NCBI GenBank assembly: GCA_014874475.1
Contig: JADBJJ010000008.1
Location: 104,322 to 168,321 of the forward strand
DNA length: 64,000 nucleotides
Reading direction: 5' to 3'
Source of the DNA: Chloroflexota bacterium
Lineage (GTDB): Bacteria > Chloroflexota > Anaerolineae > B4-G1 > DUEL01
In this document: positions 5,651 to 17,526 of the stretch, in pieces
Layout of the letters: the number at the start of each line of letters is the position of its first letter
Numbering within the stretch: the first letter of the stretch is position 1
The notes under the pieces: generated by a model
What the model saw: the letters and a program-made list of their open reading frames with translations, nothing else
The model's database searches: none
What the model was told of the DNA's origin: nothing
Program-made: the position numbers and the translations under genes

Positions 5651-7657
5651 ATGAAAACCGCAGATTTGATCCTCACCGGTGGCGTGGTCGTCACTATGAA
5701 CGACCGGTACGACGTCTGGGAGCCGGGTGCGGTGGCGGTCCGAGAGGGAGCCATCGTCGCGGTGGGACCAGCGGAGGAGGTGGAGCGGGAGTGGACGGCG
5801 CGCCAGGTGGTGAATTGCTCCGGCCACGCCGTCATCCCCGGCCTCATCAACGCCCATACCCACGCCCCGATGACCCTGGTGCGCGGCCTGGCCGACGACC
5901 TGCGCCTGGATGTCTGGCTCGTCGGCTATATGATGCCCGTGGAGCGGGAGTTCGTTCGCCCCGACTTCTGCTGGCTGGGCACCCAACTGGCCTGCGCAGA
6001 GATGATCCGCTCCGGCGTTACTTGTTTCGGCGATATGTACTACTACGAAGAGGCCGTCGCCGACGCCGCCGCCCAGGTCGGTATGCGGGCAGTCTGCGCT
6101 CAGTCCGTCCTGAAATTCCCCACTCCCGACGCGGCCAGTTACGATGAGGGACTGCGCCTGGCGGAGTCCTTCATCGGGCGCTGGCGGGGCCACCACCTCA
6201 TCGTCCCTGCGCTGGGCCCCCACGCCGCCTACACCGCTACCGCTGAGATGCTCCAGGAGTGCGCGCGCCTGGCCCAGGCCTACGACGTCCCCATCCACAT
6301 CCACGTGGCCGAGACCGCGCTGGAGGTCCAGGAGCACCGGGCCGAATACGGTATGCCCATCGTCCCCTGGATCAAAAAGCAGGGCCTGTTAGAGGCCAGG
6401 ACTACCGCCGTCCACTGTGTCCACCTGGATGAGGGCGAGATGCACACTCTGCTCCACCACGGGACAGGCGTGGCCCACAACCCCACCAGCAATCTGAAAC
6501 TAGCCAGCGGCATCGCGCCGGTGGCCCGGATGCTGGCCCTGGGCCTGAACGTGGGCATTGGCACCGACGGCCCTGCCAGCAACAACGACCTGGATATGTT
6601 TGAGGAACTGCGGCTGGCGGCAATCCTAGCCAAAGGCATCACCGCCGACCCGACGGCCCTGCCCGCCCGCCAGGCGCTGGCTATGGCGACCATCATGGGC
6701 GCCCGAGCCCTGCACATCGCTCACCTGACCGGCTCGCTGGAAGTCGGCAAACGGGCCGACATCGCCGTCGTCAGCCTGGAGGACCTGCACCTGACCCCCC
6801 GCTTCCACCGGGACCCCGAAAGTATCTATTCCCTGCTGGTCTACGCAGCCAAGAGCCAAGACGTGCGCCACGTCCTCTGCGACGGCCAGTGGCTTATGCG
6901 GGACCGGGTTCTTTTGACGGTGGACCCCGAGGGACTGTGTACTCAGGCCCTGGAGATTGCCCGTAAAATTGACTATTTCATCAACCTTCGGGAGGAGAGC
7001 GTCCTCAGCAAACTGGTCGCCATCGGCGGCGTGGCCCGGGAGAAAACCTTTGAGGTTCAGGTTAAGGTCCACCTGACCGATGACGCAGATGTCCTGGCGG
7101 TGCTGACGGACGGAACCCTTCCCATCGTCAAACAGTCCCGGCGACGGCAATACGACACATACTTCCTATTTGATGACCCCGACCGCAGCCGCCTGCGCTA
7201 TCGGGAAGAGGAGATCCTGAACGATGAGGATCAGGTCGCCGACGTCCGTTACCGGCTCACACTGACGAGCGATACGAAGGAGCGGGAGTTTCCCCATTCT
7301 GTGCTGCTCTCCCGTTCCCGGTTTGACGCACCCGCAACCCGCAGTCTGCGCTTCTACCGGGAGTACTTCAAGCCGGCGGCGGAGTGGGAAGTCCACAAAG
7401 AGCGGCGGCGGTACCACATCCGCTACGGCGGGACCGACTTCGCGGTCAACCTGGACCGGGTGACCCATCCGGCGCTCCCCGCCTACTTCCTGGAACTGAA
7501 GAGCCGTACCTGGTCGGCGCAGGACGCGGAGCGGAAAGCGATGCTCATCGGCGAACTGCTGGAACTCTTCGGCGTCGGGGAGCAGGAACTGGTGCGGCGG
7601 GAGTACCTGGACCTGGCGCGGGAGCATAAAGAGTCAGAAGGACCAGCGACTTCATAA
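5651..7657 (+). CDS. MtaD/COG0402-family amidohydrolase deaminase (approx aa 1-435) fused to a C-terminal CYTH-like domain (approx aa 445-668)
   Basis: N-terminal part has the classic MTA/SAH-deaminase metal-binding motifs (HAVIPGLINAHTHAPMTL, HVAE, DG...NN). C-terminal approx 220 aa shows CYTH-like landmarks (FEVQVKV, YFLFDD...RLRYREEE, YRLTLTSDTKEREF, RYHIRYGG..NLDRV, FLELK). Strong RBS. Confidence 0.8.
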   Translation: MKTADLILTGGVVVTMNDRYDVWEPGAVAVREGAIVAVGPAEEVEREWTARQVVNCSGHAVIPGLINAHTHAPMTLVRGLADDLRLDVWLVGYMMPVEREFVRPDFCWLGTQLACAEMIRSGVTCFGDMYYYEEAVADAAAQVGMRAVCAQSVLKFPTPDAASYDEGLRLAESFIGRWRGHHLIVPALGPHAAYTATAEMLQECARLAQAYDVPIHIHVAETALEVQEHRAEYGMPIVPWIKKQGLLEARTTAVHCVHLDEGEMHTLLHHGTGVAHNPTSNLKLASGIAPVARMLALGLNVGIGTDGPASNNDLDMFEELRLAAILAKGITADPTALPARQALAMATIMGARALHIAHLTGSLEVGKRADIAVVSLEDLHLTPRFHRDPESIYSLLVYAAKSQDVRHVLCDGQWLMRDRVLLTVDPEGLCTQALEIARKIDYFINLREESVLSKLVAIGGVAREKTFEVQVKVHLTDDADVLAVLTDGTLPIVKQSRRRQYDTYFLFDDPDRSRLRYREEEILNDEDQVADVRYRLTLTSDTKEREFPHSVLLSRSRFDAPATRSLRFYREYFKPAAEWEVHKERRRYHIRYGGTDFAVNLDRVTHPALPAYFLELKSRTWSAQDAERKAMLIGELLELFGVGEQELVRREYLDLAREHKESEGPATS

Positions 7658-7672
7658 TCGCTGATCCTTCCA

Positions 7673-10264
7673 GTGGTTCCGTTTTTCTGGCCCCCTATGG
7701 ACCCTGTCCTCTCCCTTCTGGCCCGCCTGCGGGCGGACCCCGATTTGATGCGCAATGTGACGGCCTGGGAGCAATTGCCGGCCCGGACGGCCCGCACCGC
7801 TCCCTGGCCCGTCGCCCTGGCCTCCCGGCTGGTAGAGGTCGCGCGCGGTGCAGGCATAGAGGCTCCATACACCCACCAGGCCGAGGCCGTCACCGCCGCG
7901 CTGGACGGCCACAACGTCGTCCTGGCGACCGCCGCCGCCTCTGGCAAGTCTCTGGCAATCCATCTCCCCGTTCTGCAAACCCTCTTGACCGACCCGACGG
8001 CCACTGCTATCTACCTCTTCCCCACCAAAGCCCTGGCTCACGACCAACTGGCGACCCTGCGGCCGCTGCTGATGCCTTTCCCGTCCATCGTCGCCGCCGC
8101 CTACGACGGCGATACCCCCACCAGCCAGCGGACCACCATCCGCCAGAAGGCGCGTCTGCTGGTGACCAATCCGGATATGCTCCACATGGGCATTCTGCCC
8201 TACCACACCCGCTGGGCCCGCTTCCTCTCTGGCCTGCGCTGGGTCGTCCTGGACGAACTCCACGTCTACCACGGGGTGTTTGGGAGCCACGTCGCCAACG
8301 TCCTGCGGAGACTGCGCCGGGTCTGTCGTTTCTACGGCGCCGCTCCCCATTTCCTCTGCGCCTCCGCCACCATCGCCAACCCCCGGGGACTGGCCGAACG
8401 GCTGTTGGAGGCAGAGGTCTATCCGGTGGTAGAGGACGGGGCACCGCGCGGGGAGAAACATGTCCTCATCTATAACCCGCCCCTGGTGGACCCGGCTCTG
8501 GGCTTGCGTCGTCCGCTTCTCCTGGCCGCGCTGGACATCGCCAGCCACATTCTTCCAGCAGACCTGCAGACCATTTTCTTCGCCCGCTCCCGTCTGAGCA
8601 CCGAAGTCCTTCTGGGCTACCTGCGGGAACGGGCCCCCGCGTGGGGGCAGGACCCCGCCGCCATCCGAGGCTATCGGGGCGGCTACCTGCCCTCCCAGCG
8701 GCGGGAGATTGAACAGGGTCTGCGAGAAGGGACGGTCCGGGCTGTCGTCGCCACCAATGCGCTGGAACTGGGCGTGGATATCGGGCAGATGGCCGCCTGC
8801 GTCATGGTCGGCTATCCCGGCTCCGTCGCCAGCACCTGGCAGCAAGCCGGCCGGGCCGGACGCCGGGCCGGGGCATCGCTGGTCGTCCTGATCGCCGGGT
8901 CCTCGCCGCTGGACCAGTACCTGGCGACCCATCCGGAGTTCCTCTTCGGCCGACCGATGGAGGAAGCCCACTTGAATCCCGATAACCCGGCCGTCCTGGT
9001 TGACCACGTCGCCTGCGCCGCGTACGAGTTGCCCTTTGAGCCCGGCGAGTCCTTCGGGACCCTGCCGGACGTGGGGGGGTGGCTCTGTCTGCTGGAGGAG
9101 ACGGGCGACCTGCACCGCTCGGACGGGCGGTACATATGGGTCGGGGAGAGGGAGCCCGCGCGGGCGGTCAACCTGCGCACCAGCACCCCCGATGTGGTAG
9201 TCATTCAGGATGTCAGCACGGACCCGCCGCAAGTCATCGGTGAGATAGACCGCGCCAGCGCGCCCATACTGGTCTATCCAGGCGCCATCTACCTGCACGA
9301 GGCCGACATGTACCGGGTGGAGAACCTGGACTGGGACGCGGGGCTGGCGCAGGTGCGGGCGGTAGAGGTGGACTACTATACCCGCGCCAGCGCAATCACA
9401 GAAGTCCAGGTTCTGGAGACACTGGGGAGCGCCAGCCGCCAGGCCGGTATGGACTGGGCCGTCTCCTGGGGGGTTATAGAGGTCACCCGCCGTGTCACCG
9501 GTTACCGGCAGATTCGCCGCTACACCCACGAGGTACTGGGCGGGGAGGAGGTAGACCTGCCGGAGGGGCGTATGGAGACGGTGGGAGTCTGGATAGACCT
9601 GGGGCCGGAACTGGTGGAGCAATTGCAGGAGGAACAGGTGCTCCACCTGCCCACTCACTATGGCCCGGACTGGCCGGCGCAGCGGGCGGCGGCGCTGGCC
9701 CGGGACGGCTACCGCTGTCGCCACTGCGGAGCGCCGGCGCAGGAGGGACGTCCGCTGGAGGTTCACCATCGGGTCCCTTTCGCCGTCTTTGGTTACATTC
9801 CGGGGAAGAACGACTTTTACCGTCTGGCGAACCGGCTGGAGAACCTCATCACCCTCTGCCCGACCTGCCACCGGCAGGTGGAGCGAGCCCGCGGGGCCCG
9901 TAGCGCGCTCTCCGGCCTGGCCTACTTGCTGCGTGGCCTGGCGCCGCTTTACGTCCTCTGTGCGCCGGGGGACCTGGAGACGGTGGTGGAGCCGCGTACG
10001 TGGGAGACCCACCTCCCCCGGGTGACCGTGTACGACCGGGTGCCGGGCGGGGCGGGCCTTTCAGCGCGCCTCTACGAGTTGCTGACGGAGGGGACAGCGC
10101 TTCTGGAGGCTGCGCGGGAGCAGGTGGCAACCTGTCCATGTGCGGACGGATGCCCGGCCTGCGTGGGGCCGGTGGGGGAGCAGGAAGAGGGGACCAAAGA
10201 GCGGACGCGCCGGCTGCTGGAGAAGATGCTGGCCCTGGCGGGTTTACCCAGAGCGGCCAGGTAG
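7673..10264 (+). CDS. DEAD/DEAH-box helicase of the MrfA/YprA (DUF1998) family with an HNH-type motif in the C-terminal domain
   Basis: Helicase motifs I (AASGKS), II (DELH), III (SAT), VI (QQAGRAGRR). C-terminus has CRHC..HH..N..CPTCH and a second CPCADGCPAC cluster. Start is a GTG at 7673; an alternative ATG is at 7697. Confidence 0.85.
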   Translation: MVPFFWPPMDPVLSLLARLRADPDLMRNVTAWEQLPARTARTAPWPVALASRLVEVARGAGIEAPYTHQAEAVTAALDGHNVVLATAAASGKSLAIHLPVLQTLLTDPTATAIYLFPTKALAHDQLATLRPLLMPFPSIVAAAYDGDTPTSQRTTIRQKARLLVTNPDMLHMGILPYHTRWARFLSGLRWVVLDELHVYHGVFGSHVANVLRRLRRVCRFYGAAPHFLCASATIANPRGLAERLLEAEVYPVVEDGAPRGEKHVLIYNPPLVDPALGLRRPLLLAALDIASHILPADLQTIFFARSRLSTEVLLGYLRERAPAWGQDPAAIRGYRGGYLPSQRREIEQGLREGTVRAVVATNALELGVDIGQMAACVMVGYPGSVASTWQQAGRAGRRAGASLVVLIAGSSPLDQYLATHPEFLFGRPMEEAHLNPDNPAVLVDHVACAAYELPFEPGESFGTLPDVGGWLCLLEETGDLHRSDGRYIWVGEREPARAVNLRTSTPDVVVIQDVSTDPPQVIGEIDRASAPILVYPGAIYLHEADMYRVENLDWDAGLAQVRAVEVDYYTRASAITEVQVLETLGSASRQAGMDWAVSWGVIEVTRRVTGYRQIRRYTHEVLGGEEVDLPEGRMETVGVWIDLGPELVEQLQEEQVLHLPTHYGPDWPAQRAAALARDGYRCRHCGAPAQEGRPLEVHHRVPFAVFGYIPGKNDFYRLANRLENLITLCPTCHRQVERARGARSALSGLAYLLRGLAPLYVLCAPGDLETVVEPRTWETHLPRVTVYDRVPGGAGLSARLYELLTEGTALLEAAREQVATCPCADGCPACVGPVGEQEEGTKERTRRLLEKMLALAGLPRAAR

Positions 10265-10291
10265 GACGGCTTTTTCAGGCCGTCGTTTTCC
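10265..10291 (+). terminator. hairpin terminator after the helicase (GACGGC-8nt-GCCGTC then GTTTTCC); second hairpin GGCGGGCT-TTCC-AGCCCGCC at about 10306-10325
   Basis: Two GC-rich stem-loops with T tracts on the plus strand, in the 62-nt convergent gap between the helicase and the GH57 gene. Confidence 0.5.
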
Positions 10292-10326: not shown

Positions 10327-11697
10327 TTACCGCAACATATGTTCCAGTAAATCCGCCCCGCTGCGGCCCGTCCGCCAACTGACAGCCAGCCGCAAGTCGC
10401 GCCGGAAGCCTGCTGTCAGGTCCTCGCCGGTGGCGTAGCGGGTGAGCGCCAGGGCAAGGACCGCGTTGGCGATGGCGTAGCGCGGCTCAGACCGGTCCAG
10501 GTCCTCAAAGAAAAAGGTGCAACTGGCGTACATCCGCTGGCGGTAGAACTGCGCTTCCAGAAGCCACAGGAGCCGCCGGGCCTGGTCGGTCGTCAGATGG
10601 CCCAGGCCGTTGCCGCAAAGAAAGGTCTCTCCGTCCATCTGCCCCAGAACGACCGCGATGTAGGCATCCCGGAGGGGCCAGGGGGCCAGCCCCAACCGCT
10701 GGGCCTCGCAGGTGTAGACTCCATCCAGTTCGCAGGTCAGGTTATCCAGCGCGCGCCGCAGCGCCGCCTTCCAGCGGCCATCGCCCGGAGTGCAGGGACA
10801 GCCCAGCGCCCAGCGGTTCAGGTTGTGCTCGCAACTCCAGGCACTGTTCTCCACCACCTCCACTTCGGCCTGGGGCGGATGCTCCCGGAAATACGTCCCC
10901 AGCGTGACCGGCGGGCATCCCACCGCCGCCGCGCCGTCCAGGATGCGCTCCAGTACCTCCAACCCTTCGGGATGATGATGGCCGAACGTCTCCCCGTCCG
11001 TGGCGATCAGCACCAGCCCCCCGCGCCGGCAGCGCCATTCCAGATGTTCCCGCAACCACTGCTCTGTGTTCTCCGGCGCGGGCATCCCGAACGCCAGCGC
11101 GTCCGAAAGGGCGCGGTCCCGGACAAATACGGCGATTTCCCGCCCTCCGGGCAGTCGGACCCGGTACGGCCCGGCTCCGTCGGTCAGGTCGCCCCGGACC
11201 TGCTGGTCGGAGAGGATCGTAAACCGGATCCCTTCCGCCGCCATGACCTCCAATGTCTCCAGGTCCACCGCCATCTCTGGCAGCCACATCCCCTCCGGCG
11301 GGTGGCCGAAACGGTGGGTGAAACTGGCGATCCCCCAGCGGACCTGACAGATTTTATCCCGATGGCGGGCCAGAGGGAGAATCGTATGATGAACGGACTG
11401 GGCGATGCCGTTCCCGGCGCCGTGGGCCTGATAGACGGCGCGCTCCTCGGCGACGATGTGCTCATACGTATCGTGGGCGTATTCGTCCAGCCAGCGGGCC
11501 AGGGTGGCGCCCAGGTTGAAACTGATGCGGCCAAAGAGACCCCGCCGGGCCATAGGCCCGTAGCACTCGGCGGTGATGCGCTCATTCCAATTGGCGTACG
11601 GCGCCGCGTCCGGCTCGCGCGGGACTTTCCCGGTGAACGGGTCCACCCGCGGCGGCTGGTAGAAGTGACCGTGAATGCAGAAAGCCGCAGATTTCAT
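10327..11697 (-). CDS. glycoside hydrolase family 57 protein
   Basis: N-terminal CIHGHFYQPPR GH57 signature. 456 aa. Confidence 0.85.
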   Translation of the reverse strand: MKSAAFCIHGHFYQPPRVDPFTGKVPREPDAAPYANWNERITAECYGPMARRGLFGRISFNLGATLARWLDEYAHDTYEHIVAEERAVYQAHGAGNGIAQSVHHTILPLARHRDKICQVRWGIASFTHRFGHPPEGMWLPEMAVDLETLEVMAAEGIRFTILSDQQVRGDLTDGAGPYRVRLPGGREIAVFVRDRALSDALAFGMPAPENTEQWLREHLEWRCRRGGLVLIATDGETFGHHHPEGLEVLERILDGAAAVGCPPVTLGTYFREHPPQAEVEVVENSAWSCEHNLNRWALGCPCTPGDGRWKAALRRALDNLTCELDGVYTCEAQRLGLAPWPLRDAYIAVVLGQMDGETFLCGNGLGHLTTDQARRLLWLLEAQFYRQRMYASCTFFFEDLDRSEPRYAIANAVLALALTRYATGEDLTAGFRRDLRLAVSWRTGRSGADLLEHMLR

Positions 11698-12897: not shown

Positions 12898-15800
12898 TCA
12901 CTCCGCCCCCACCACCTCGTAGATTCGCACCCCTTCCCGGTCATAGACGACCCGCAGAAGTCCCCGAACAACCATCCCATCAAACTTGGAGAGCCCGGCA
13001 GCATCATAATAGAGGCGTTCGTAAGGGCCCACATAGACGTAGCGAACTCCGTACTGGCGCAGAATCGCCAGCGCCCGGTCTGGGTCGGGGGTGTTGTAGC
13101 ACTCCCGTACATACCAGTGGCGCCGATCTACCTCCTCTCCCATTCCCTGCTGCACTTCGTGCCAGCGCCAGCCAACGACCGCAGGCAGGCCAGTGTAGAT
13201 AGAAATGCGGCTCTGCCAGAGGTACTCCCGCTCCCCCAGCCCCTCCAGGATCACCGGCGAACCCTGAACATTCTCCAGTAACCAGAGAATCCCCCCATAA
13301 TCCGGCCCCAGGTCTACCTCCCCCCGCACATCCCTGGTACGGCTATAGCGGATGTAGGCCATACCGTCCAGCGTGGGGCCGGTGGCATGGGTGAACCGGT
13401 CCCTTATCTTGGCCGGGATGCTCATGATCGGGAAGAGAGCCGTGGCGAATATGATGGCCCCCATTGCCACCCACCAGAGGCGCCGGATGTCGGCGGGCCA
13501 GGCGTCGCTGACCCTGGCCAACTCCACCAGCGCGGCCGCCGCACTCACTGAGAGCAGAGTCCAGGCCTGGAAGTAGAATTTGAAGACGGTGTTCATCCGA
13601 CCGATGTCCCCCTCCAGCACCAGGACCTCCACGCCCAGGGTCAGCGCCAGAGCCACCGCCATCCAGAACGCAGGCAGGGCGCGGTGTGCGGGGAGCAGAA
13701 AGGCCAGGACGAAAGCAAGGACGCCCATCGGCAGGGCCACCGCGGCCACTGGCACTCCCAGACCGGCGGCCATCAGCCCACAGACCAACGCTCCCCCCAA
13801 CCCGAGGAAAAACAGCGAAAGCCGTCGGCCCGAAAGCACCTGCCAGGTATCCACCACCAGAAGCGCGCCCAGCGGCAGGAGAAACTGGCCCAGCAGCAAG
13901 ATGTAAATGTCCAGCGGCGTGCGGGCATCCGTCCAGAGGCGCATCCGATCGTAGGGAGCGATATAGGCCCGGATGTACGGAAGGAACAGCAACACCGTCA
14001 GCCCGGCCAACAGGAGGGGATAGAGAAGGGCACGCCCCCAATGCCGCTTCACCTCACTCTGCGGCTCGCCCCGAACCAGAGACCAGGCCAGCACGGCCAT
14101 CCCCAGCAGGAGATAGGTGGGGTAGTCCCAGGTATTGGTCGCCCGGAGAGCGCCAATGATGAGAGCGGCCAGTAGCAAAGATAGCCCTCGCGAACTCTTC
14201 TGCGAATGCCCCTGCCGGAATTGCAGGGCCCATTCCACCATCACCACCAGCGCGCAGAGGGTGTACGGCAGGGCCAGAAGGTGAGCGTGCAGGTCGGCAT
14301 AGAGAAATGTGAACGCCGGGAATTCCGTGATCGGACCCACTCCACTGGCATCCGGCGGAATCATCCGGGTGGGATACCAGTAGGGCGTCTCCGGACGGAG
14401 GGGCAGAGGGGCGCCACCCAGGACCATCCCGAAGCCCCTCAGCGCCTGGACCAGCGACTCCAAGCCCGGAATGGTACTCCGGAAAGGGATTTCGCCCGCG
14501 ACCAGCCGGAAACTGTCGTATAGAAGCCGCGCCTCCCCCAGGTTCCCCAAGACCAGAACGAACAGAACAGCAAGAAGGCCCGCGATTTGTGGACGCGCAG
14601 ACACCGCTCTGCTATCGTTTCCTGGCTGGATGCCAGCAACAAGGTTGAAAGCCACAGAGAAAGCCGCTCCCCCCACCAGGGCATAGAAAAGGGCCAGGGC
14701 CAGATTGTAGGCAATGGAGGGCATAATGCCCGCCAGTTTCGCCAGTGTCCCCACCAGGACAAAGCCGAAGTAGTAGTAGTTAACGTAGCCGCCAGCGAAC
14801 CAGGGATTGTAGGGCGGGAACCAGGTGGATTTGATGACGGCGTTCAGATAGGCGAAGTCCATTGGCTTCTCGCCCCCGACCACCGGATGCCAGAGGTCGG
14901 GGTTTTGAGCCCGTACCCAGGCCCAGAAGGCATAGAGGACCAGAAACAGGCCCTCGTACATCAAAAGCAGCCCTCCGGACCGGCGCAGGAAGTCCCGGAA
15001 CTCGCCCCAGCGTCGCCAGACCACCCAGATGCCGGCCATCGCCATCAGGAAAGCACTCAAGGCGATGGTGCCGCGCGTGTTGGGTAGAATCCGCAGGCTG
15101 GCTGCCAACCAGGTTAAGTAGGAGACCGCCAGCAGACCGACCGCGCGGGCAATGCCGTAACCCCGGTCGGTCAGGCGGGGAAGGGCCCGCCAGAGAATAG
15201 GGAAAACCAGCCATCCCAGCCCTCCCGCCACCAGATACCAGACAGCCGCTGCCAAAAACGATGAGCGGTTCAGCGGGCTCCTCAGGTCAAACATCGCCGA
15301 CCAGGTCCCGCCCGCCCGCTGCTGGGCCCAGGTCTGCTCGTCTATGATGGGTCGCCGCTGCGTCTGGGGGCTTCCCCCAGATGGTATGAAAGGAAGAATC
15401 TGCCGCCATATCCGCAGGGTCTCCTGCTTCGGGGTCACCCAGACCACGTGATCCAGCAGGGAGGCCGGCAGCAAGGCCTCCGCTCGCTCCCGCGAGTACG
15501 CGGCCGTTTTGCGGAAGATGAGGACGCGAGGGTGGTCGTAGACGCTAAAGGCCTCCTCCGCTGGAGGGAGAAACACCGAGCGCGGCGCCGCCCGGTACTG
15601 GTACGAGGCCTCCGGAACGGGGAACGGCTCCTCCGTATCCGGGAACTGGAAGGGGCCAAGAGCCGGATAGGAAGTGAAATCGGCCACCAGTTCAAAGCCC
15701 AGTTCCCCGCTGAACAGGGCGCGATAATACGCGATGGTCAGCGGATAACGGGTCGGCAACCGGACAATGGAAGCATAGAGACGGTTGGAGCCGATGATGA

Positions 15801-17526
15801 TGTAATCCGCTTCATCCAGCCAGTTCAGCAGGTCCTCCCGCTTCTGGGGCGTGTCGTCATGGTAGAGTTGCAGAGTGCCGTCGGAACTGGTAGAGAGTCC
15901 CCGGTACATCCCGCCGAAGGGGTCTTTGCCGTCCACCCGCAGCGGGGGTGCCCAGTCCCAGTGCTCCGTCGCCAGGACAGAACCCAGAGGGACGTTCTGA
16001 AAAATCCAGCGGGAGGCCGCGATGCGGGTATGGGGCCGCCGGTAGACGGAGGTGAAGGCCAGAGCCCAGAGCAGGGTCACCAGGAGCAGGATTACAGGGA
16101 GCAAGGTGGTAAGGAACAGAAGGGCTTTCCGCTTCGCTTTGTGCTGGACCACACGCGCACGAGTCCAAATGCGGACCAGGAGCCAGGCTGCCAGGAGGAC
16201 AAAGGCCGGATAGACCGGCAAGAGATAACGGACAGATTTGACCCATTGGGTACCCTGGTAGAGGAAATAGCCGGTGGCCCAGAGCCAGGGGAGGAGGAGA
16301 GGTTCCCTCGCCAGGGCCATTAGCCCCTCCCGCCGCCAGCGGCGAAGCAAATGGGCACCACCCCACCCCCATCCGGCCCAGGCCGCCAGCCCCAGGGGTA
16401 GGCCCAGTCCCCAGAAGACCATGTTGACCCAGGGGAAGAGCAGCGGCAACCGGTTGGTCCACTGATGGCCGGGATAAGTATCCACCGCGCCGGACATCAG
16501 CCCGCGCACCTCAGCCATGTTTTTGAGCCATTGGGGGTTGAAACGCAGTCCGAAGAGGCCGGGGCCCATAAAGGCGTAGGGCTGGGCCAGGCGGAAGGCC
16601 AGGAAGGCCCCCAGGAGCGCACAGGCGCCGAGGAGCACCAGGCGCAGGGCAGCCTGGCGCAGGCATATCGCTCCGCTATCGCTCCGGGGCGCATTCCGAA
16701 CCACACTGGCGAGAGCCGCCAGCCCCACCAGCAGGCCCAGGGGCCAGACGCTGATTTTGCAGGCCATGCCCAGTCCGGTGGTCAGGCCGGCCAGAAGGGC
16801 ATAGATGTACGGATAGGCAGGAGCAAACCTTGCCCCTTCATCGCGGCTTTCAGGATCGGGGGCATGGGAGGGCAGCTCTTGCGGTTGCCCCTTCTCGCGG
16901 CCACTTTGGGCCAGGCAGAGAGCCAAGTAGAGAGTCACTGCGACGAAGAAATTGGCACAAGCGTCCACCGTGTAGAAATGGGATTGCTGGATGGGCAGGA
17001 CAGCCAGCGCATAGAGGGAGGCCGCCAGCAACCCCAGGCCGTCGGAGCGGAGCCGCCGCCCGGCCAAGAAGACAAAAAGGATGCTCCCGGTGTCCAGAAG
17101 GGCCGCCAACAGTCGCCCCAGATGGCGAGCGCCTCCGCCGCTAAAACTCCCCGGCCAGCAGGCCGACGAATTCCCCAGGAGCACGGGGGCCAGCAGGCGG
17201 GCCGGAAGGGAAACCGCCGTCCCGTCCCGGCATCCCCGGTCCAGCGCCTCCCCCACCGCGCGGGTGAGGAACAGGGGCAACGTGCCGTAAACGAAGAACC
17301 CGTATCCGCGGTTGTAGGGGTTCAGCGGAGAGTTGGCCGTATCCAGGTAGAGGGACAGGCGGTTGGGAAGGCTAACCGCCGCCGTCACCTGGCGCAGAAA
17401 CTCCTCATCCGGATGGATGGGCTGCCCTTCACCCCAGCCCAACCCGACCAGACGAAAGGACAGGCCCACCAGCAGAACCGCCAGAAGGAAAAAGGACGTT
17501 TCCCAGCGGGAGTTTCGTTGCTCCAT
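12898..17526 (-). CDS. 1542-aa polytopic membrane protein: N-terminal PMT_2/ArnT-like GT-C glycosyltransferase module fused to a DUF2298 module
   Basis: More than 20 predicted TM helices. N-terminal approx 550 aa resemble dolichyl/undecaprenyl-phosphate-sugar dependent GT-C enzymes. The YYFGFVLVGTLAKLAGI... region matches DUF2298. Confidence 0.8.
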   Translation of the reverse strand: MEQRNSRWETSFFLLAVLLVGLSFRLVGLGWGEGQPIHPDEEFLRQVTAAVSLPNRLSLYLDTANSPLNPYNRGYGFFVYGTLPLFLTRAVGEALDRGCRDGTAVSLPARLLAPVLLGNSSACWPGSFSGGGARHLGRLLAALLDTGSILFVFLAGRRLRSDGLGLLAASLYALAVLPIQQSHFYTVDACANFFVAVTLYLALCLAQSGREKGQPQELPSHAPDPESRDEGARFAPAYPYIYALLAGLTTGLGMACKISVWPLGLLVGLAALASVVRNAPRSDSGAICLRQAALRLVLLGACALLGAFLAFRLAQPYAFMGPGLFGLRFNPQWLKNMAEVRGLMSGAVDTYPGHQWTNRLPLLFPWVNMVFWGLGLPLGLAAWAGWGWGGAHLLRRWRREGLMALAREPLLLPWLWATGYFLYQGTQWVKSVRYLLPVYPAFVLLAAWLLVRIWTRARVVQHKAKRKALLFLTTLLPVILLLVTLLWALAFTSVYRRPHTRIAASRWIFQNVPLGSVLATEHWDWAPPLRVDGKDPFGGMYRGLSTSSDGTLQLYHDDTPQKREDLLNWLDEADYIIIGSNRLYASIVRLPTRYPLTIAYYRALFSGELGFELVADFTSYPALGPFQFPDTEEPFPVPEASYQYRAAPRSVFLPPAEEAFSVYDHPRVLIFRKTAAYSRERAEALLPASLLDHVVWVTPKQETLRIWRQILPFIPSGGSPQTQRRPIIDEQTWAQQRAGGTWSAMFDLRSPLNRSSFLAAAVWYLVAGGLGWLVFPILWRALPRLTDRGYGIARAVGLLAVSYLTWLAASLRILPNTRGTIALSAFLMAMAGIWVVWRRWGEFRDFLRRSGGLLLMYEGLFLVLYAFWAWVRAQNPDLWHPVVGGEKPMDFAYLNAVIKSTWFPPYNPWFAGGYVNYYYFGFVLVGTLAKLAGIMPSIAYNLALALFYALVGGAAFSVAFNLVAGIQPGNDSRAVSARPQIAGLLAVLFVLVLGNLGEARLLYDSFRLVAGEIPFRSTIPGLESLVQALRGFGMVLGGAPLPLRPETPYWYPTRMIPPDASGVGPITEFPAFTFLYADLHAHLLALPYTLCALVVMVEWALQFRQGHSQKSSRGLSLLLAALIIGALRATNTWDYPTYLLLGMAVLAWSLVRGEPQSEVKRHWGRALLYPLLLAGLTVLLFLPYIRAYIAPYDRMRLWTDARTPLDIYILLLGQFLLPLGALLVVDTWQVLSGRRLSLFFLGLGGALVCGLMAAGLGVPVAAVALPMGVLAFVLAFLLPAHRALPAFWMAVALALTLGVEVLVLEGDIGRMNTVFKFYFQAWTLLSVSAAAALVELARVSDAWPADIRRLWWVAMGAIIFATALFPIMSIPAKIRDRFTHATGPTLDGMAYIRYSRTRDVRGEVDLGPDYGGILWLLENVQGSPVILEGLGEREYLWQSRISIYTGLPAVVGWRWHEVQQGMGEEVDRRHWYVRECYNTPDPDRALAILRQYGVRYVYVGPYERLYYDAAGLSKFDGMVVRGLLRVVYDREGVRIYEVVGAE

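What the first reader, a model, noticed from the sequence alone, without database searches (positions are those of the whole stretch)
9700..10180. HNH-type motif inside the DUF1998/MZB C-terminal domain of the helicase
The segment reads YRCRHCGAP...LEVHHRVPF...NRLENLITLCPTCHRQ. That is CxxC..HH..N..CxxCH, the canonical HNH nuclease arrangement, with the two CxxC pairs as the zinc site. A second cluster CPCADGCPAC follows. In characterised MrfA the C-terminal domain is described as a Cys4 zinc-binding module, and nuclease activity is supplied in trans by MrfB. No MrfB-like exonuclease gene is adjacent here. The helicase may therefore carry its own nuclease.
Basis: partly seen in the sequence, partly recalled or inferred. 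Interest (0 to 1): 0.55.

Follow-up and report, generated by a model that had tools for sequence, protein, structure and literature searches.

The report
Repair helicase with built-in HNH nuclease
A DNA-repair helicase of the MrfA family in a Chloroflexota (Anaerolineae) bacterium carries a complete, strongly conserved HNH DNA-cutting domain inserted just before its zinc-binding tail, so one protein probably both unwinds and nicks DNA; no paper I could search describes this layout, but it is a variation on the familiar helicase-plus-nuclease theme.

Summary
The motif is real. The ORF at 7697..10264 (+) is an MrfA/YprA-type DExH helicase (E 4e-201 to B. subtilis MrfA, PDB 6ZNP). It is collinear with MrfA except for about 100 extra residues (aa 645-743, nt 9605-9901), where MrfA has about 12.

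The insert scores above Pfam's HNH threshold (31.7 vs 21.4 bits). Its predicted fold best matches the GVE2 phage HNH endonuclease and McrA.

The insert has its own CxxC…CxxC zinc site. CPCADGCPAC is the separate MZB Cys4 site. The HNH therefore sits at the connector/MZB junction and does not reuse the MZB zinc ligands.

The zinc cysteines, H698, H699, N724 and H733 are identical in 119 aligned sequences (the query plus 118 homologues). The insert is as conserved as the motor domains.

Among the 150 best cluster representatives, about 38 have the insert and the rest have about 15 residues there. All 80 best genome loci, and every hit that carries an organism name, are Chloroflexota, mostly Anaerolineae.

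No MrfB-like gene lies in the window. However, 13 of the 80 related loci encode MrfB directly downstream of an HNH-bearing helicase, so the HNH adds to MrfB rather than simply replacing it.

Best reading: a helicase-nuclease whose HNH supplies an incision. Nuclease activity is untested. This is a new variant of a known kind, of moderate interest.

The parts
7697..10264 (+). Gene for an MrfA/YprA-family DExH helicase with an inserted HNH domain. It is 855 aa from the ATG at 7697. The ORF is also open from the GTG at 7673, giving the 863-aa numbering used in this report.
   Evidence: phmmer against PDB: B. subtilis YprA/MrfA 6znp, E 4.3e-201, collinear over aa 19-644 and 744-852. Exact match to P0099, 855 aa.
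7871..8866 (+). RecA1 and RecA2 motor domains, with motif I ASGKS (aa 89), motif II DELH (aa 194), motif III SAT (aa 231) and motif VI QQAGRAGR (aa 390).
   Evidence: Pfam DEAD aa 67-235 (E 1.7e-29) and Helicase_C aa 299-398 (E 7e-13). All four motifs are intact.
8975..9604 (+). Winged-helix, OB and connector (CON) region, collinear with MrfA residues 424-633.
   Evidence: Pfam WHD_HRQ1 aa 435-503. Alignment to 6znp runs up to query aa 644 = MrfA 633. Domain limits are taken from PMC7797055.
9605..9901 (+). The ~100-residue insertion relative to MrfA (aa 645-743). It consists of a short helix, then a complete HNH domain with its N-terminal helix (YGPDWPAQRAAALARDGYRC).
   Evidence: MrfA has only residues 634-645 here. 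Among 150 cluster representatives the segment length is bimodal: 89-111 aa versus about 15 aa. The AF2 models are confident: pLDDT 92.4 and 87.4.
9716..9880 (+). HNH catalytic core (aa 682-736). Zinc ligands are C682, C685, C729 and C732. H698-H699 are at nt 9764-9769, with H699 the predicted general base. N720 and N724 follow. H733 is the predicted metal ligand.
   Evidence: Pfam PF01844: 31.7 bits vs cut-off 21.4. These residues are identical in all 119 aligned sequences, except N720 at 118/119. Foldseek best matches are 5h0m (GVE2 HNH) and 6ghc (McrA). The 'LEVHH.xP' string matches McrA 'LEVHHVIP'.
9917..10165 (+). MZB/DUF1998 domain (aa 749-831), with its own Cys4 zinc site CPCADGCPAC at nt 10133-10162.
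   Evidence: Pfam MZB E 2.3e-21. It aligns to MrfA 646-750, including CPCHDGCPSC. Foldseek to 6znp_A: E 1.7e-8, rmsd 2.1 over 108 columns.
10265..10290 (+). GC-rich hairpin followed by GTTTTCC directly after the stop codon. This is a possible intrinsic terminator. The next gene is convergent on the minus strand.
   Evidence: RNAfold gives an 8-bp stem in the 49 nt after the stop (that stretch folds at -20.5 kcal/mol and includes a second small hairpin). The consensus terminator scan did not list it. The next ORF, 10327..11697 (-), is GH57/DUF3536.

Best explanation
The gene encodes an MrfA/YprA-type 3'-to-5' DNA repair helicase that has acquired a complete HNH (beta-beta-alpha-metal) endonuclease domain. 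The domain is inserted at the hinge between the connector (CON) element and the zinc-binding MZB domain. Sequence evidence supports the following: the helicase motifs are intact; the HNH has its own Cys4 zinc site plus the catalytic His, Asn and His; the MZB keeps its separate Cys4 site; and the insert is a lineage trait of Chloroflexota (mainly class Anaerolineae) under purifying selection as strong as that on the motor. The following is inferred. In the MrfA-DNA structure, CON and MZB line the funnel through which the 5' part of the tracking strand enters, and the displaced strand is proposed to run along MZB. The HNH would therefore sit at the leading edge of the translocating enzyme and nick DNA there, probably when the motor meets or stalls at a lesion or junction. 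That would supply an incision or DNA end, a step missing from the published MrfAB excision model, in which MrfB is an exonuclease that prefers DNA ends. In lineages that keep mrfB downstream, the two nucleases would act together: the HNH nicks and MrfB resects. In the window's lineage, another exonuclease or simple strand displacement would finish the job.
For: MrfA identity and collinearity, E 4e-201. Pfam domain order DEAD, Helicase_C, WHD_HRQ1, HNH, MZB, with HNH above the gathering score. The insertion maps between MrfA residues 633 and 646, the CON/MZB boundary as defined in PMC7797055. C682, C685, H698, H699, N724, C729, C732 and H733 are invariant in all 119 aligned sequences (the query plus 118 homologues) and are kept in more divergent members. 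Mean column identity is 0.78 for the HNH core, against 0.76-0.77 for RecA1/RecA2 and 0.61 for CON. AF2 models have pLDDT 92.4 with pTM 0.83 and pLDDT 87.4. Foldseek top hits for the HNH-only model are 5h0m, 6ghc, Cap5, Cas5-HNH, Cas9 HNH and ZRANB3 HNH, with probabilities of 0.85-1.00. The full HMMER scan shows bimodal insert length, with about 38 of 150 representatives carrying the insert. All 80 best genome loci and every hit with an organism name are Chloroflexota/Anaerolineae. Other family members carry fused MrfB-like or RNase T exonucleases, so attaching a nuclease to this helicase is a recurrent solution. The MrfAB model lacks an incision step, and MrfB prefers linear DNA (10.1101/426304; PMC11194089). 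The surrounding genes are housekeeping genes and there is no defence signature.
Against: There is no biochemical evidence that any HNH-bearing MrfA cuts DNA. Motif conservation does not prove catalysis, and some HNH domains serve mainly as binding or regulatory modules. The position of the HNH relative to the DNA path is inferred from the published MrfA structure. Foldseek E-values for the HNH matches are modest (2e-3 and weaker), although probabilities are about 1.0. A quick NJ tree did not recover the HNH-bearing proteins as one clade, so the evolutionary history (one gain with losses, or poor resolution) is unsettled. Whether this organism has MrfB elsewhere in its genome is unknown.
Confidence: 0.65

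Rival explanations
1. The HNH module is catalytically silent. It acts as an extra zinc-ribbon DNA-binding or lesion-sensing clamp on the canopy of the helicase, comparable to the extra zinc-binding modules reported in the OB-CON-DUF1998 region of defence-type YprA helicases.
For: Zinc-binding inserts in the OB-CON-DUF1998 module are common in other YprA branches (PMC12458937). MrfB is retained next to the HNH-bearing helicase in 13 of 80 loci, so a nuclease was already available in those lineages. No activity data exist.
Against: The predicted catalytic residues are invariant, not only the four zinc cysteines: H698, H699, N724 and H733 in 119/119 aligned sequences, and N720 in 118/119. They also survive at 36-45% overall identity. 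A purely structural zinc ribbon would be expected to lose them.
Confidence: 0.15
2. The protein is the effector of an anti-phage or anti-plasmid system rather than a repair enzyme. The helicase would track along foreign DNA and the HNH would degrade it, as in Druantia DruE, the DISARM-related systems, or Cas3.
For: [quoted passage not shown] HNH domains are frequent defence effectors, and Cap5, McrA and Cas5-HNH are among the best fold matches.
Against: The closest solved relative is the repair helicase MrfA at about 50% identity, not a defence-branch helicase. PADLOC models match only the generic helicase core. Neighbouring genes are housekeeping genes, and no partner gene other than MrfB is conserved across 80 loci. 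The gene appears vertically inherited across several Anaerolineae orders, and its GC content equals that of its surroundings.
Confidence: 0.1
3. The insert is a remnant of a mobile HNH homing endonuclease or intein that landed in the helicase gene and has no role in the host protein's function.
For: HNH endonucleases are common in mobile elements, and the closest solved fold is a phage HNH (5h0m).
Against: There is no Hint/intein domain and the insert is too short for an intein. It sits in frame at the same site across hundreds of homologues spanning several orders, and it is as conserved as the motor domains. Its base composition is identical to the rest of the gene. It is predicted to pack against MZB in a confident two-domain model (pTM 0.83).
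Confidence: 0.02

Closest known systems
Bacillus subtilis MrfA (YprA), DUF1998/MZB helicase; PDB 6ZNP/6ZNQ/6ZNS
   Same: The domain order is the same: NTR, RecA1, RecA2, WH, OB, CON, MZB. Identity is about 50% over 620 residues. The DELH motif and the CPCxDGCPxC zinc site are shared.
   Different: MrfA has 12 residues where this protein has a ~100-residue HNH domain. In B. subtilis the nuclease MrfB is supplied in trans from the same operon. No mrfB is present in this window.
MrfA-MrfB fusion proteins and MrfAB operons of the same family
   Same: The same helicase family with a nuclease physically coupled to it. The exonuclease (RNase_H_2 type PF13482, or RNase_T) is fused at the C- or N-terminus in relatives such as P0302, P0304, P0351 and P0359.
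   Different: Those nucleases are DEDD 3'-5' exonucleases appended at a terminus. Here the nuclease is an HNH endonuclease inserted internally at the CON/MZB hinge. None of 31 full-length HNH-bearing representatives has a fused exonuclease, against 13 of 97 without HNH (p = 0.037).
Human ZRANB3 (SNF2-type translocase with an HNH domain)
   Same: An SF2 ATP-driven DNA motor and an HNH nuclease in one polypeptide. The ZRANB3 HNH (5mkw) is among the fold matches. From my own knowledge, ZRANB3 is an ATP-dependent, structure-specific endonuclease acting at forks.
   Different: The motor family differs (a SNF2 double-strand translocase versus a DExH single-strand helicase). The ZRANB3 HNH is C-terminal rather than inserted. 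The two fusions arose independently.
HNH-bearing type I CRISPR Cascades (Cas5-HNH, I-E HNH) and Cas3
   Same: A related HNH fold (8zp7, 8yb6). The evolutionary theme is similar: an HNH built into the DNA-recognition machine where the canonical system uses a separate nuclease.
   Different: Those are RNA-guided defence complexes with no MrfA-type helicase. Here the HNH sits on the helicase itself, and the gene context points to repair.
GVE2 phage HNH endonuclease (5H0M) and E. coli McrA (6GHC)
   Same: These are the best sequence and fold matches to the insert: 5h0m with TM 0.59/0.62 and rmsd 2.8 (phmmer E 3.5e-4). They share the CxxC…(E/D)VHHxxP…N…CxxCH layout with a Cys4 zinc site.
   Different: They are stand-alone proteins or are fused to other DNA-binding domains, not embedded in a helicase. 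The loop between the hairpin and the helix is longer here (FAVFGYIPGKNDFYRLA).

Membership tests
MrfA/YprA (DUF1998) SF2 helicase family | RecA1/RecA2 core with DExH-type motifs I, II, III and VI | tested here: met
   Pfam DEAD and Helicase_C hits. ASGKS, DELH, SAT and QQAGRAGR are all present.
MrfA/YprA (DUF1998) SF2 helicase family | Collinear WH-OB-CON-MZB accessory module | tested here: met
   phmmer to 6znp_A, E 4.3e-201, aa 19-644 aligned to MrfA 11-633 and aa 744-852 to MrfA 646-750. The NCBIfam TIGR03817 match reaches only 664 bits against a cut-off of 874, because the alignment is broken by the insert.
MrfA/YprA (DUF1998) SF2 helicase family | C-terminal four-cysteine zinc motif (CxCxxxCxxC) | tested here: met
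   CPCADGCPAC aligns to MrfA CPCHDGCPSC. C821 is conserved in 119/119 aligned sequences, and C823, C827 and C830 in 118/119. Pfam MZB E 2.3e-21.
MrfA/YprA (DUF1998) SF2 helicase family | 3'-to-5' DNA helicase activity and a role in mitomycin C repair with MrfB | not testable with these tools
   This needs biochemistry and genetics. No MrfB-like ORF is in the 64-kb window, but 13 of 80 related loci have one downstream.
HNH (beta-beta-alpha-metal) endonucleases, Pfam PF01844 | Profile match above the curated threshold | tested here: met
   31.7 bits against a gathering score of 21.4, E 1.7e-7, aa 682-736, profile positions 1-44 of 47.
HNH (beta-beta-alpha-metal) endonucleases, Pfam PF01844 | Catalytic His on the hairpin, structural Asn, and a metal-binding His/Asn on the helix | tested here: met
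   H699 (preceded by H698), N720/N724 and H733. H698, H699, N724 and H733 are identical in all 119 aligned sequences and N720 in 118/119. They align with McrA 'LEVHHVIP…N…CPNCH'.
HNH (beta-beta-alpha-metal) endonucleases, Pfam PF01844 | CxxC…CxxC zinc site bracketing the active site (the zinc-finger HNH subgroup) | tested here: met
   C682, C685, C729 and C732 are identical in all 119 aligned sequences.
HNH (beta-beta-alpha-metal) endonucleases, Pfam PF01844 | Beta-beta-alpha fold | tested here: met
HNH (beta-beta-alpha-metal) endonucleases, Pfam PF01844 | Metal-dependent DNA cleavage | not testable with these tools
   This requires an enzyme assay with an H699A control.
Inteins / mobile homing endonucleases | Hint splicing domain and recent mobility (patchy presence among close relatives) | tested here: not met
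   No Hint domain. The insert is present in 119 of the 120 closest homologues, and its GC content equals that of the gene.
YprA-based defence systems (DISARM, Dpd, Druantia, ARMADA, BRIGADE, TALON) | Conserved operon partners (DrmB/C/D/E, DruH, methylases, PLD or Vsr nucleases and others) and the BrxA-like or other branch-specific inserts | tested here: not met
   Neighbouring genes encode ETF, PSP1, PIG-L, an amidohydrolase-CYTH protein, GH57, DUF1028 and DUF2298. No partner other than MrfB is conserved across 80 loci. PADLOC matches only the helicase core.

The most novel reading that the evidence does not exclude
The HNH-bearing MrfA is a self-contained 'track, stall and cut' excision enzyme. 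The helicase moves 3'-to-5' on the damaged strand, and its HNH, mounted on the rotating MZB 'drum' at the DNA entry funnel, is switched on by the conformational state adopted when the motor stalls at a bulky adduct. This would make the lesion-proximal incision that the MrfAB pathway has never been shown to have. If so, Anaerolineae would reveal the missing endonuclease step of a UvrABC-independent excision repair pathway, and would provide a compact ATP-gated nickase.
Probability: 0.2. Interest if true: 0.65.

Novelty: new variant of a known kind. Interest (0 to 1): 0.45.

Why it matters
MrfA/YprA helicases are widespread repair and defence motors. The published MrfAB repair model has a helicase and an exonuclease but no enzyme that makes the first cut. 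A whole bacterial class (Anaerolineae) carries a version with an endonuclease built into the moving part of the helicase, sometimes together with MrfB. This gives a concrete, testable candidate for how incision is coupled to translocation in this pathway. It also adds an internal-insertion solution to the known ways of joining a nuclease to this helicase (in trans, terminal fusion). The practical interest is a possible thermostable ATP-coupled nickase. The finding is not a conceptual surprise, because helicase-nuclease fusions are common and automatic annotation already flags both Pfam domains in these proteins.

Tried and rejected

2. A quick NJ tree of 128 representatives, with the insert columns removed, did not recover HNH-bearing sequences as one clade. 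It gave three main groups of 14, 9 and 6 plus two singletons, with 40 insert-free sequences inside the smallest enclosing split, and 30 bootstraps behaved similarly. At about 40% identity with NJ distances this is not reliable. I draw no conclusion on single versus multiple gain or loss.

3. The listing of cluster members on 10 divergent HNH-bearing representatives gave almost no organism names; only P0279 was named, as Chloroflexota. Taxonomy was instead obtained from the genome scan and from a profile search.

4. The idea that the HNH replaces MrfB was rejected as a general rule, because 13 of 80 loci have both. A weaker version survives: no HNH-bearing representative has a fused exonuclease, and in the window's own loop-length class only 1 of about 45 loci has mrfB adjacent.

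5. Apparent stand-alone HNH-MZB proteins (P0090, P0050) were checked. In L082 the helicase is split into three overlapping ORFs, which indicates frameshifts or assembly errors and not a DrmB-like split.

6. Literature searches for MrfA, YprA or DUF1998 together with HNH found no description of this architecture. The large YprA survey (PMC12458937) and its supplements mention HNH only in unrelated contexts.

7. The promoter/terminator consensus scan gave nothing useful for this gene.
Full report
**1. The observation**

The ORF on the + strand that is open from 7673 to 10264 translates to an 863-residue product. Public gene calls for the identical protein start at the ATG at 7697, giving 855 aa (P0099). 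I keep the 863-residue numbering, in which nt = 7673 + 3(aa-1).

Pfam places the domains in this order:
- DEAD at aa 67-235
- Helicase_C at aa 299-398
- WHD_HRQ1 at aa 435-503
- HNH (PF01844) at aa 682-736, with 31.7 bits against a gathering score of 21.4 and E 1.7e-7
- MZB (PF09369) at aa 749-831

The motif is therefore real, lies at the stated coordinates and is not a chance pattern.

**2. What the protein is and where the motif sits**

The best solved relative is B. subtilis YprA/MrfA (6ZNP, E 4.3e-201). The alignment comes in two pieces: query 19-644 to MrfA 11-633, and query 744-852 to MrfA 646-750. About 100 residues of the query (aa 645-743, nt 9605-9901) correspond to only 12 residues of MrfA.

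In the MrfA structure paper, the connector (CON) is residues 557-630 and the MZB domain is residues 631-749 (PMC7797055). The extra segment is therefore an insertion at the CON/MZB junction and not part of the MZB fold.

The second cysteine cluster, CPCADGCPAC (nt 10133-10162), aligns with MrfA CPCHDGCPSC, the crystallographically defined Cys4 zinc site. The protein is thus predicted to hold two independent zinc sites:
- the HNH site: C682, C685, C729, C732
- the MZB site: C821, C823, C827, C830

Helicase motifs I (ASGKS), II (DELH), III (SAT) and VI (QQAGRAGR) are intact.

**3. Is the insert a real HNH domain?**

- Sequence. Besides the Pfam hit, the C-terminal 213 residues match the GVE2 phage HNH endonuclease (5H0M, E 3.5e-4), E. 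coli McrA (6GHC) and an IscB HNH. The LEVHHxxP…N…LCPxCH string aligns residue for residue with McrA. NCBIfam also reports a sub-threshold local match to the HNH region of IscB.

**4. Conservation and distribution**

- Close homologues. Of the 120 best full-length homologues (60-100% identity), 119 carry the CxxC…HH…P…N…N…CxxCH pattern.
- Invariant residues. In an alignment of 119 sequences (the query plus 118 homologues), C682, C685, H698, H699, N724, C729, C732 and H733 are invariant, and N720 is present in 118.
- Strength of selection. Mean column identity is 0.78 for the HNH core. It is 0.76-0.77 for the two RecA domains, 0.73 for MZB and 0.61 for CON. The insert is under selection as strong as that on the motor.
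- Family-wide scan. A filter-free HMMER scan of 1.84 billion cluster representatives found 3067 relatives at E ≤ 1e-30. Among the best 150, the length of the segment aligned to aa 645-743 is bimodal. About 38 have 89-111 residues, 36 of them with the full HNH pattern. The rest have about 15 residues, as B. subtilis MrfA does.
- Taxonomy. All 80 best loci from a species-level genome collection are Chloroflexota. They include Anaerolineales, Caldilineales, Ardenticatenaceae, Promineifilaceae, Thermoflexales, Roseilinea and Brevefilum. 79 of 81 loci (L001-L081) show the motif. A profile built from eight of the most divergent HNH-bearing representatives again retrieved only proteins carrying both PF01844 and PF09369. 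Every one that carries an organism name is Chloroflexota or Anaerolineae.
- Composition. The insert has the same GC and GC3 as the rest of the gene.
- Phylogeny. A crude NJ tree did not place all HNH-bearing representatives in one clade. I regard this as unresolved.

**5. The MrfB question**

The window's neighbouring genes are housekeeping genes: ETF alpha and beta, PSP1, PIG-L, an amidohydrolase-CYTH fusion, GH57/DUF3536, DUF1028-TPR and DUF2298. The helicase gene is followed by a hairpin plus U-run and then a convergent gene.

I extracted MrfB-like exonuclease domains from relatives in which they are fused to the helicase (PF13482 or RNase_T). Using these, tblastn and an HMM found no MrfB-like ORF anywhere in the 64-kb window.

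They did find one immediately downstream of the HNH-bearing helicase in 13 of the 80 related loci. Four of these were confirmed as RNase_H_2 plus TPR, the MrfB architecture. These 13 are concentrated in the lineage with the shortest HNH loop (11 of 16 loci). They are rare in the window's loop class (1 of about 45).

The HNH is therefore not simply a substitute for MrfB, because in some Anaerolineae both are present in one operon. Conversely, none of 31 full-length HNH-bearing representatives has a fused exonuclease, against 13 of 97 without HNH (Fisher p = 0.037). No other neighbour is conserved. PADLOC models match only the generic helicase core.

**6. Mechanism**

Sequence evidence supports an intact MrfA-type motor carrying a complete, selectively maintained HNH module with all catalytic and zinc residues.

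The rest is inferred from the MrfA-DNA structure (PMC7797055). There, the 5' part of the tracking strand enters through a funnel formed by RecA2, OB, CON and MZB. The MZB rotates by about 63° on DNA binding, and the displaced strand is proposed to run between MZB and RecA2. An HNH inserted at the CON/MZB hinge would therefore sit at the leading edge of a 3'-to-5' translocase, next to the fork junction and on the moving 'drum'.

I propose that the HNH nicks DNA there, probably gated by the conformational state of the canopy. The nick would create the incision or DNA end that the published MrfAB model lacks. That model consists of MrfA unwinding plus MrfB 3'-5' degradation, and MrfB prefers linear DNA ends (10.1101/426304; PMC11194089). 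Where MrfB is co-encoded, the order of events would be nick and then resect.

Which strand is cut, what the trigger is and what the substrate is all remain unknown.

**7. Rival explanations**

- A catalytically silent zinc or DNA-binding module (about 0.15). It is disfavoured because the catalytic residues, and not only the cysteines, are invariant.
- A defence effector (about 0.1). It is disfavoured by the closeness to repair-type MrfA, the housekeeping context, the absence of partner genes and the vertical, class-wide distribution.
- A remnant of a mobile element or intein (about 0.02). It is disfavoured by the absence of a Hint domain and of compositional bias, and by the uniform presence of the insert.

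**8. Comparison with what is known, and novelty**

The protein meets every sequence-testable criterion for the MrfA/YprA family and for the HNH family. It fails the criteria for inteins and for the YprA-based defence systems.

Known ways of giving this helicase family a nuclease are:
- MrfB in trans
- terminal MrfB or RNase T fusions
- in the defence branches, C-terminal PLD or Vsr domains (PMC12458937)

An HNH inserted internally at the CON/MZB hinge is not mentioned in that survey or its supplements, nor in any paper found with the MrfA, YprA or DUF1998 plus HNH searches. Automatic annotation does already list both Pfam domains for these proteins.

Functionally the nearest analogues are ZRANB3 (an SF2 motor plus HNH) and Cas3. 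The HNH-bearing Cascades offer a parallel in which an HNH is built into a DNA-recognition machine.

I classify the finding as a new variant of a known kind. Interest is moderate (0.45). It is not conceptually surprising, but it is class-wide and strongly conserved, and it offers a direct handle on the unresolved incision step of MrfA-dependent repair.

Noticed in passing
window 5651-7657 (+): The gene immediately upstream of the helicase encodes a 668-aa fusion. It joins an amidohydrolase (Amidohydro_1, aa 61-414; it may be a nucleoside/MTA-type deaminase, but that was not tested) to a C-terminal CYTH domain (aa 468-631, E 3.3e-6). This is an unusual combination. Its stop at 7657 lies only about 40 nt before the helicase start.
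   Followed up: partly
loci L048, L050, L053, L054, L056, L058, L059, L060, L063, L072, L073, L077, L081 (e.g. L077:8611-9870): In these Anaerolineales-type relatives, an MrfB-like gene (RNase_H_2 PF13482 plus TPR repeats) follows the HNH-bearing helicase directly. One operon therefore encodes a helicase, an HNH endonuclease and a DEDD exonuclease.
   Followed up: yes
HNH loop, window 9776-9840 (aa 702-723), compared with loci L002-L081: The loop between the HH hairpin and the N…CxxCH helix, and the loop between the first CxxC and HH, come in discrete length classes. The shortest class reads 'HHKxPFRxFxSYxxANxLxNL'. The window's class reads 'FGYxPGxNxxYxxAN'. Some Ardenticatenaceae and Promineifilaceae have 10-30 extra residues after the first CxxC. 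The shortest class is the one that keeps mrfB adjacent.
   Followed up: partly
P0302, P0359 and P0304/P0351/P0355 (relatives without the HNH insert): Other family members carry different nuclease add-ons. P0302 has an N-terminal MrfB-like domain plus HEAT repeats. P0304, P0351 and P0355 have a C-terminal MrfB-like domain. P0359 (1541 aa) has a long C-terminal extension ending in an RNase_T exonuclease.
   Followed up: partly
L082:3946-6528: In a 3.68-Mb contig the HNH-bearing helicase is called as three overlapping ORFs of 423, 288 and 175 aa. These are most likely frameshifts from long-read assembly or a pseudogene. This explains the apparent stand-alone 'HNH-MZB' proteins in the protein database.
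   Followed up: yes
window 10265-10290: An 8-bp GC-rich hairpin (GACGGCCU…) followed by GUUUUCC lies right after the helicase stop codon. The consensus terminator scan missed it, but it is a plausible intrinsic terminator.
   Followed up: partly
window 12898-17526 (-): A very large (1542 aa) DUF2298 membrane protein is flanked by a CAP-domain protein and a PMT_2-type glycosyltransferase. This looks like a cell-envelope glycosylation cluster unrelated to the finding.
   Followed up: no
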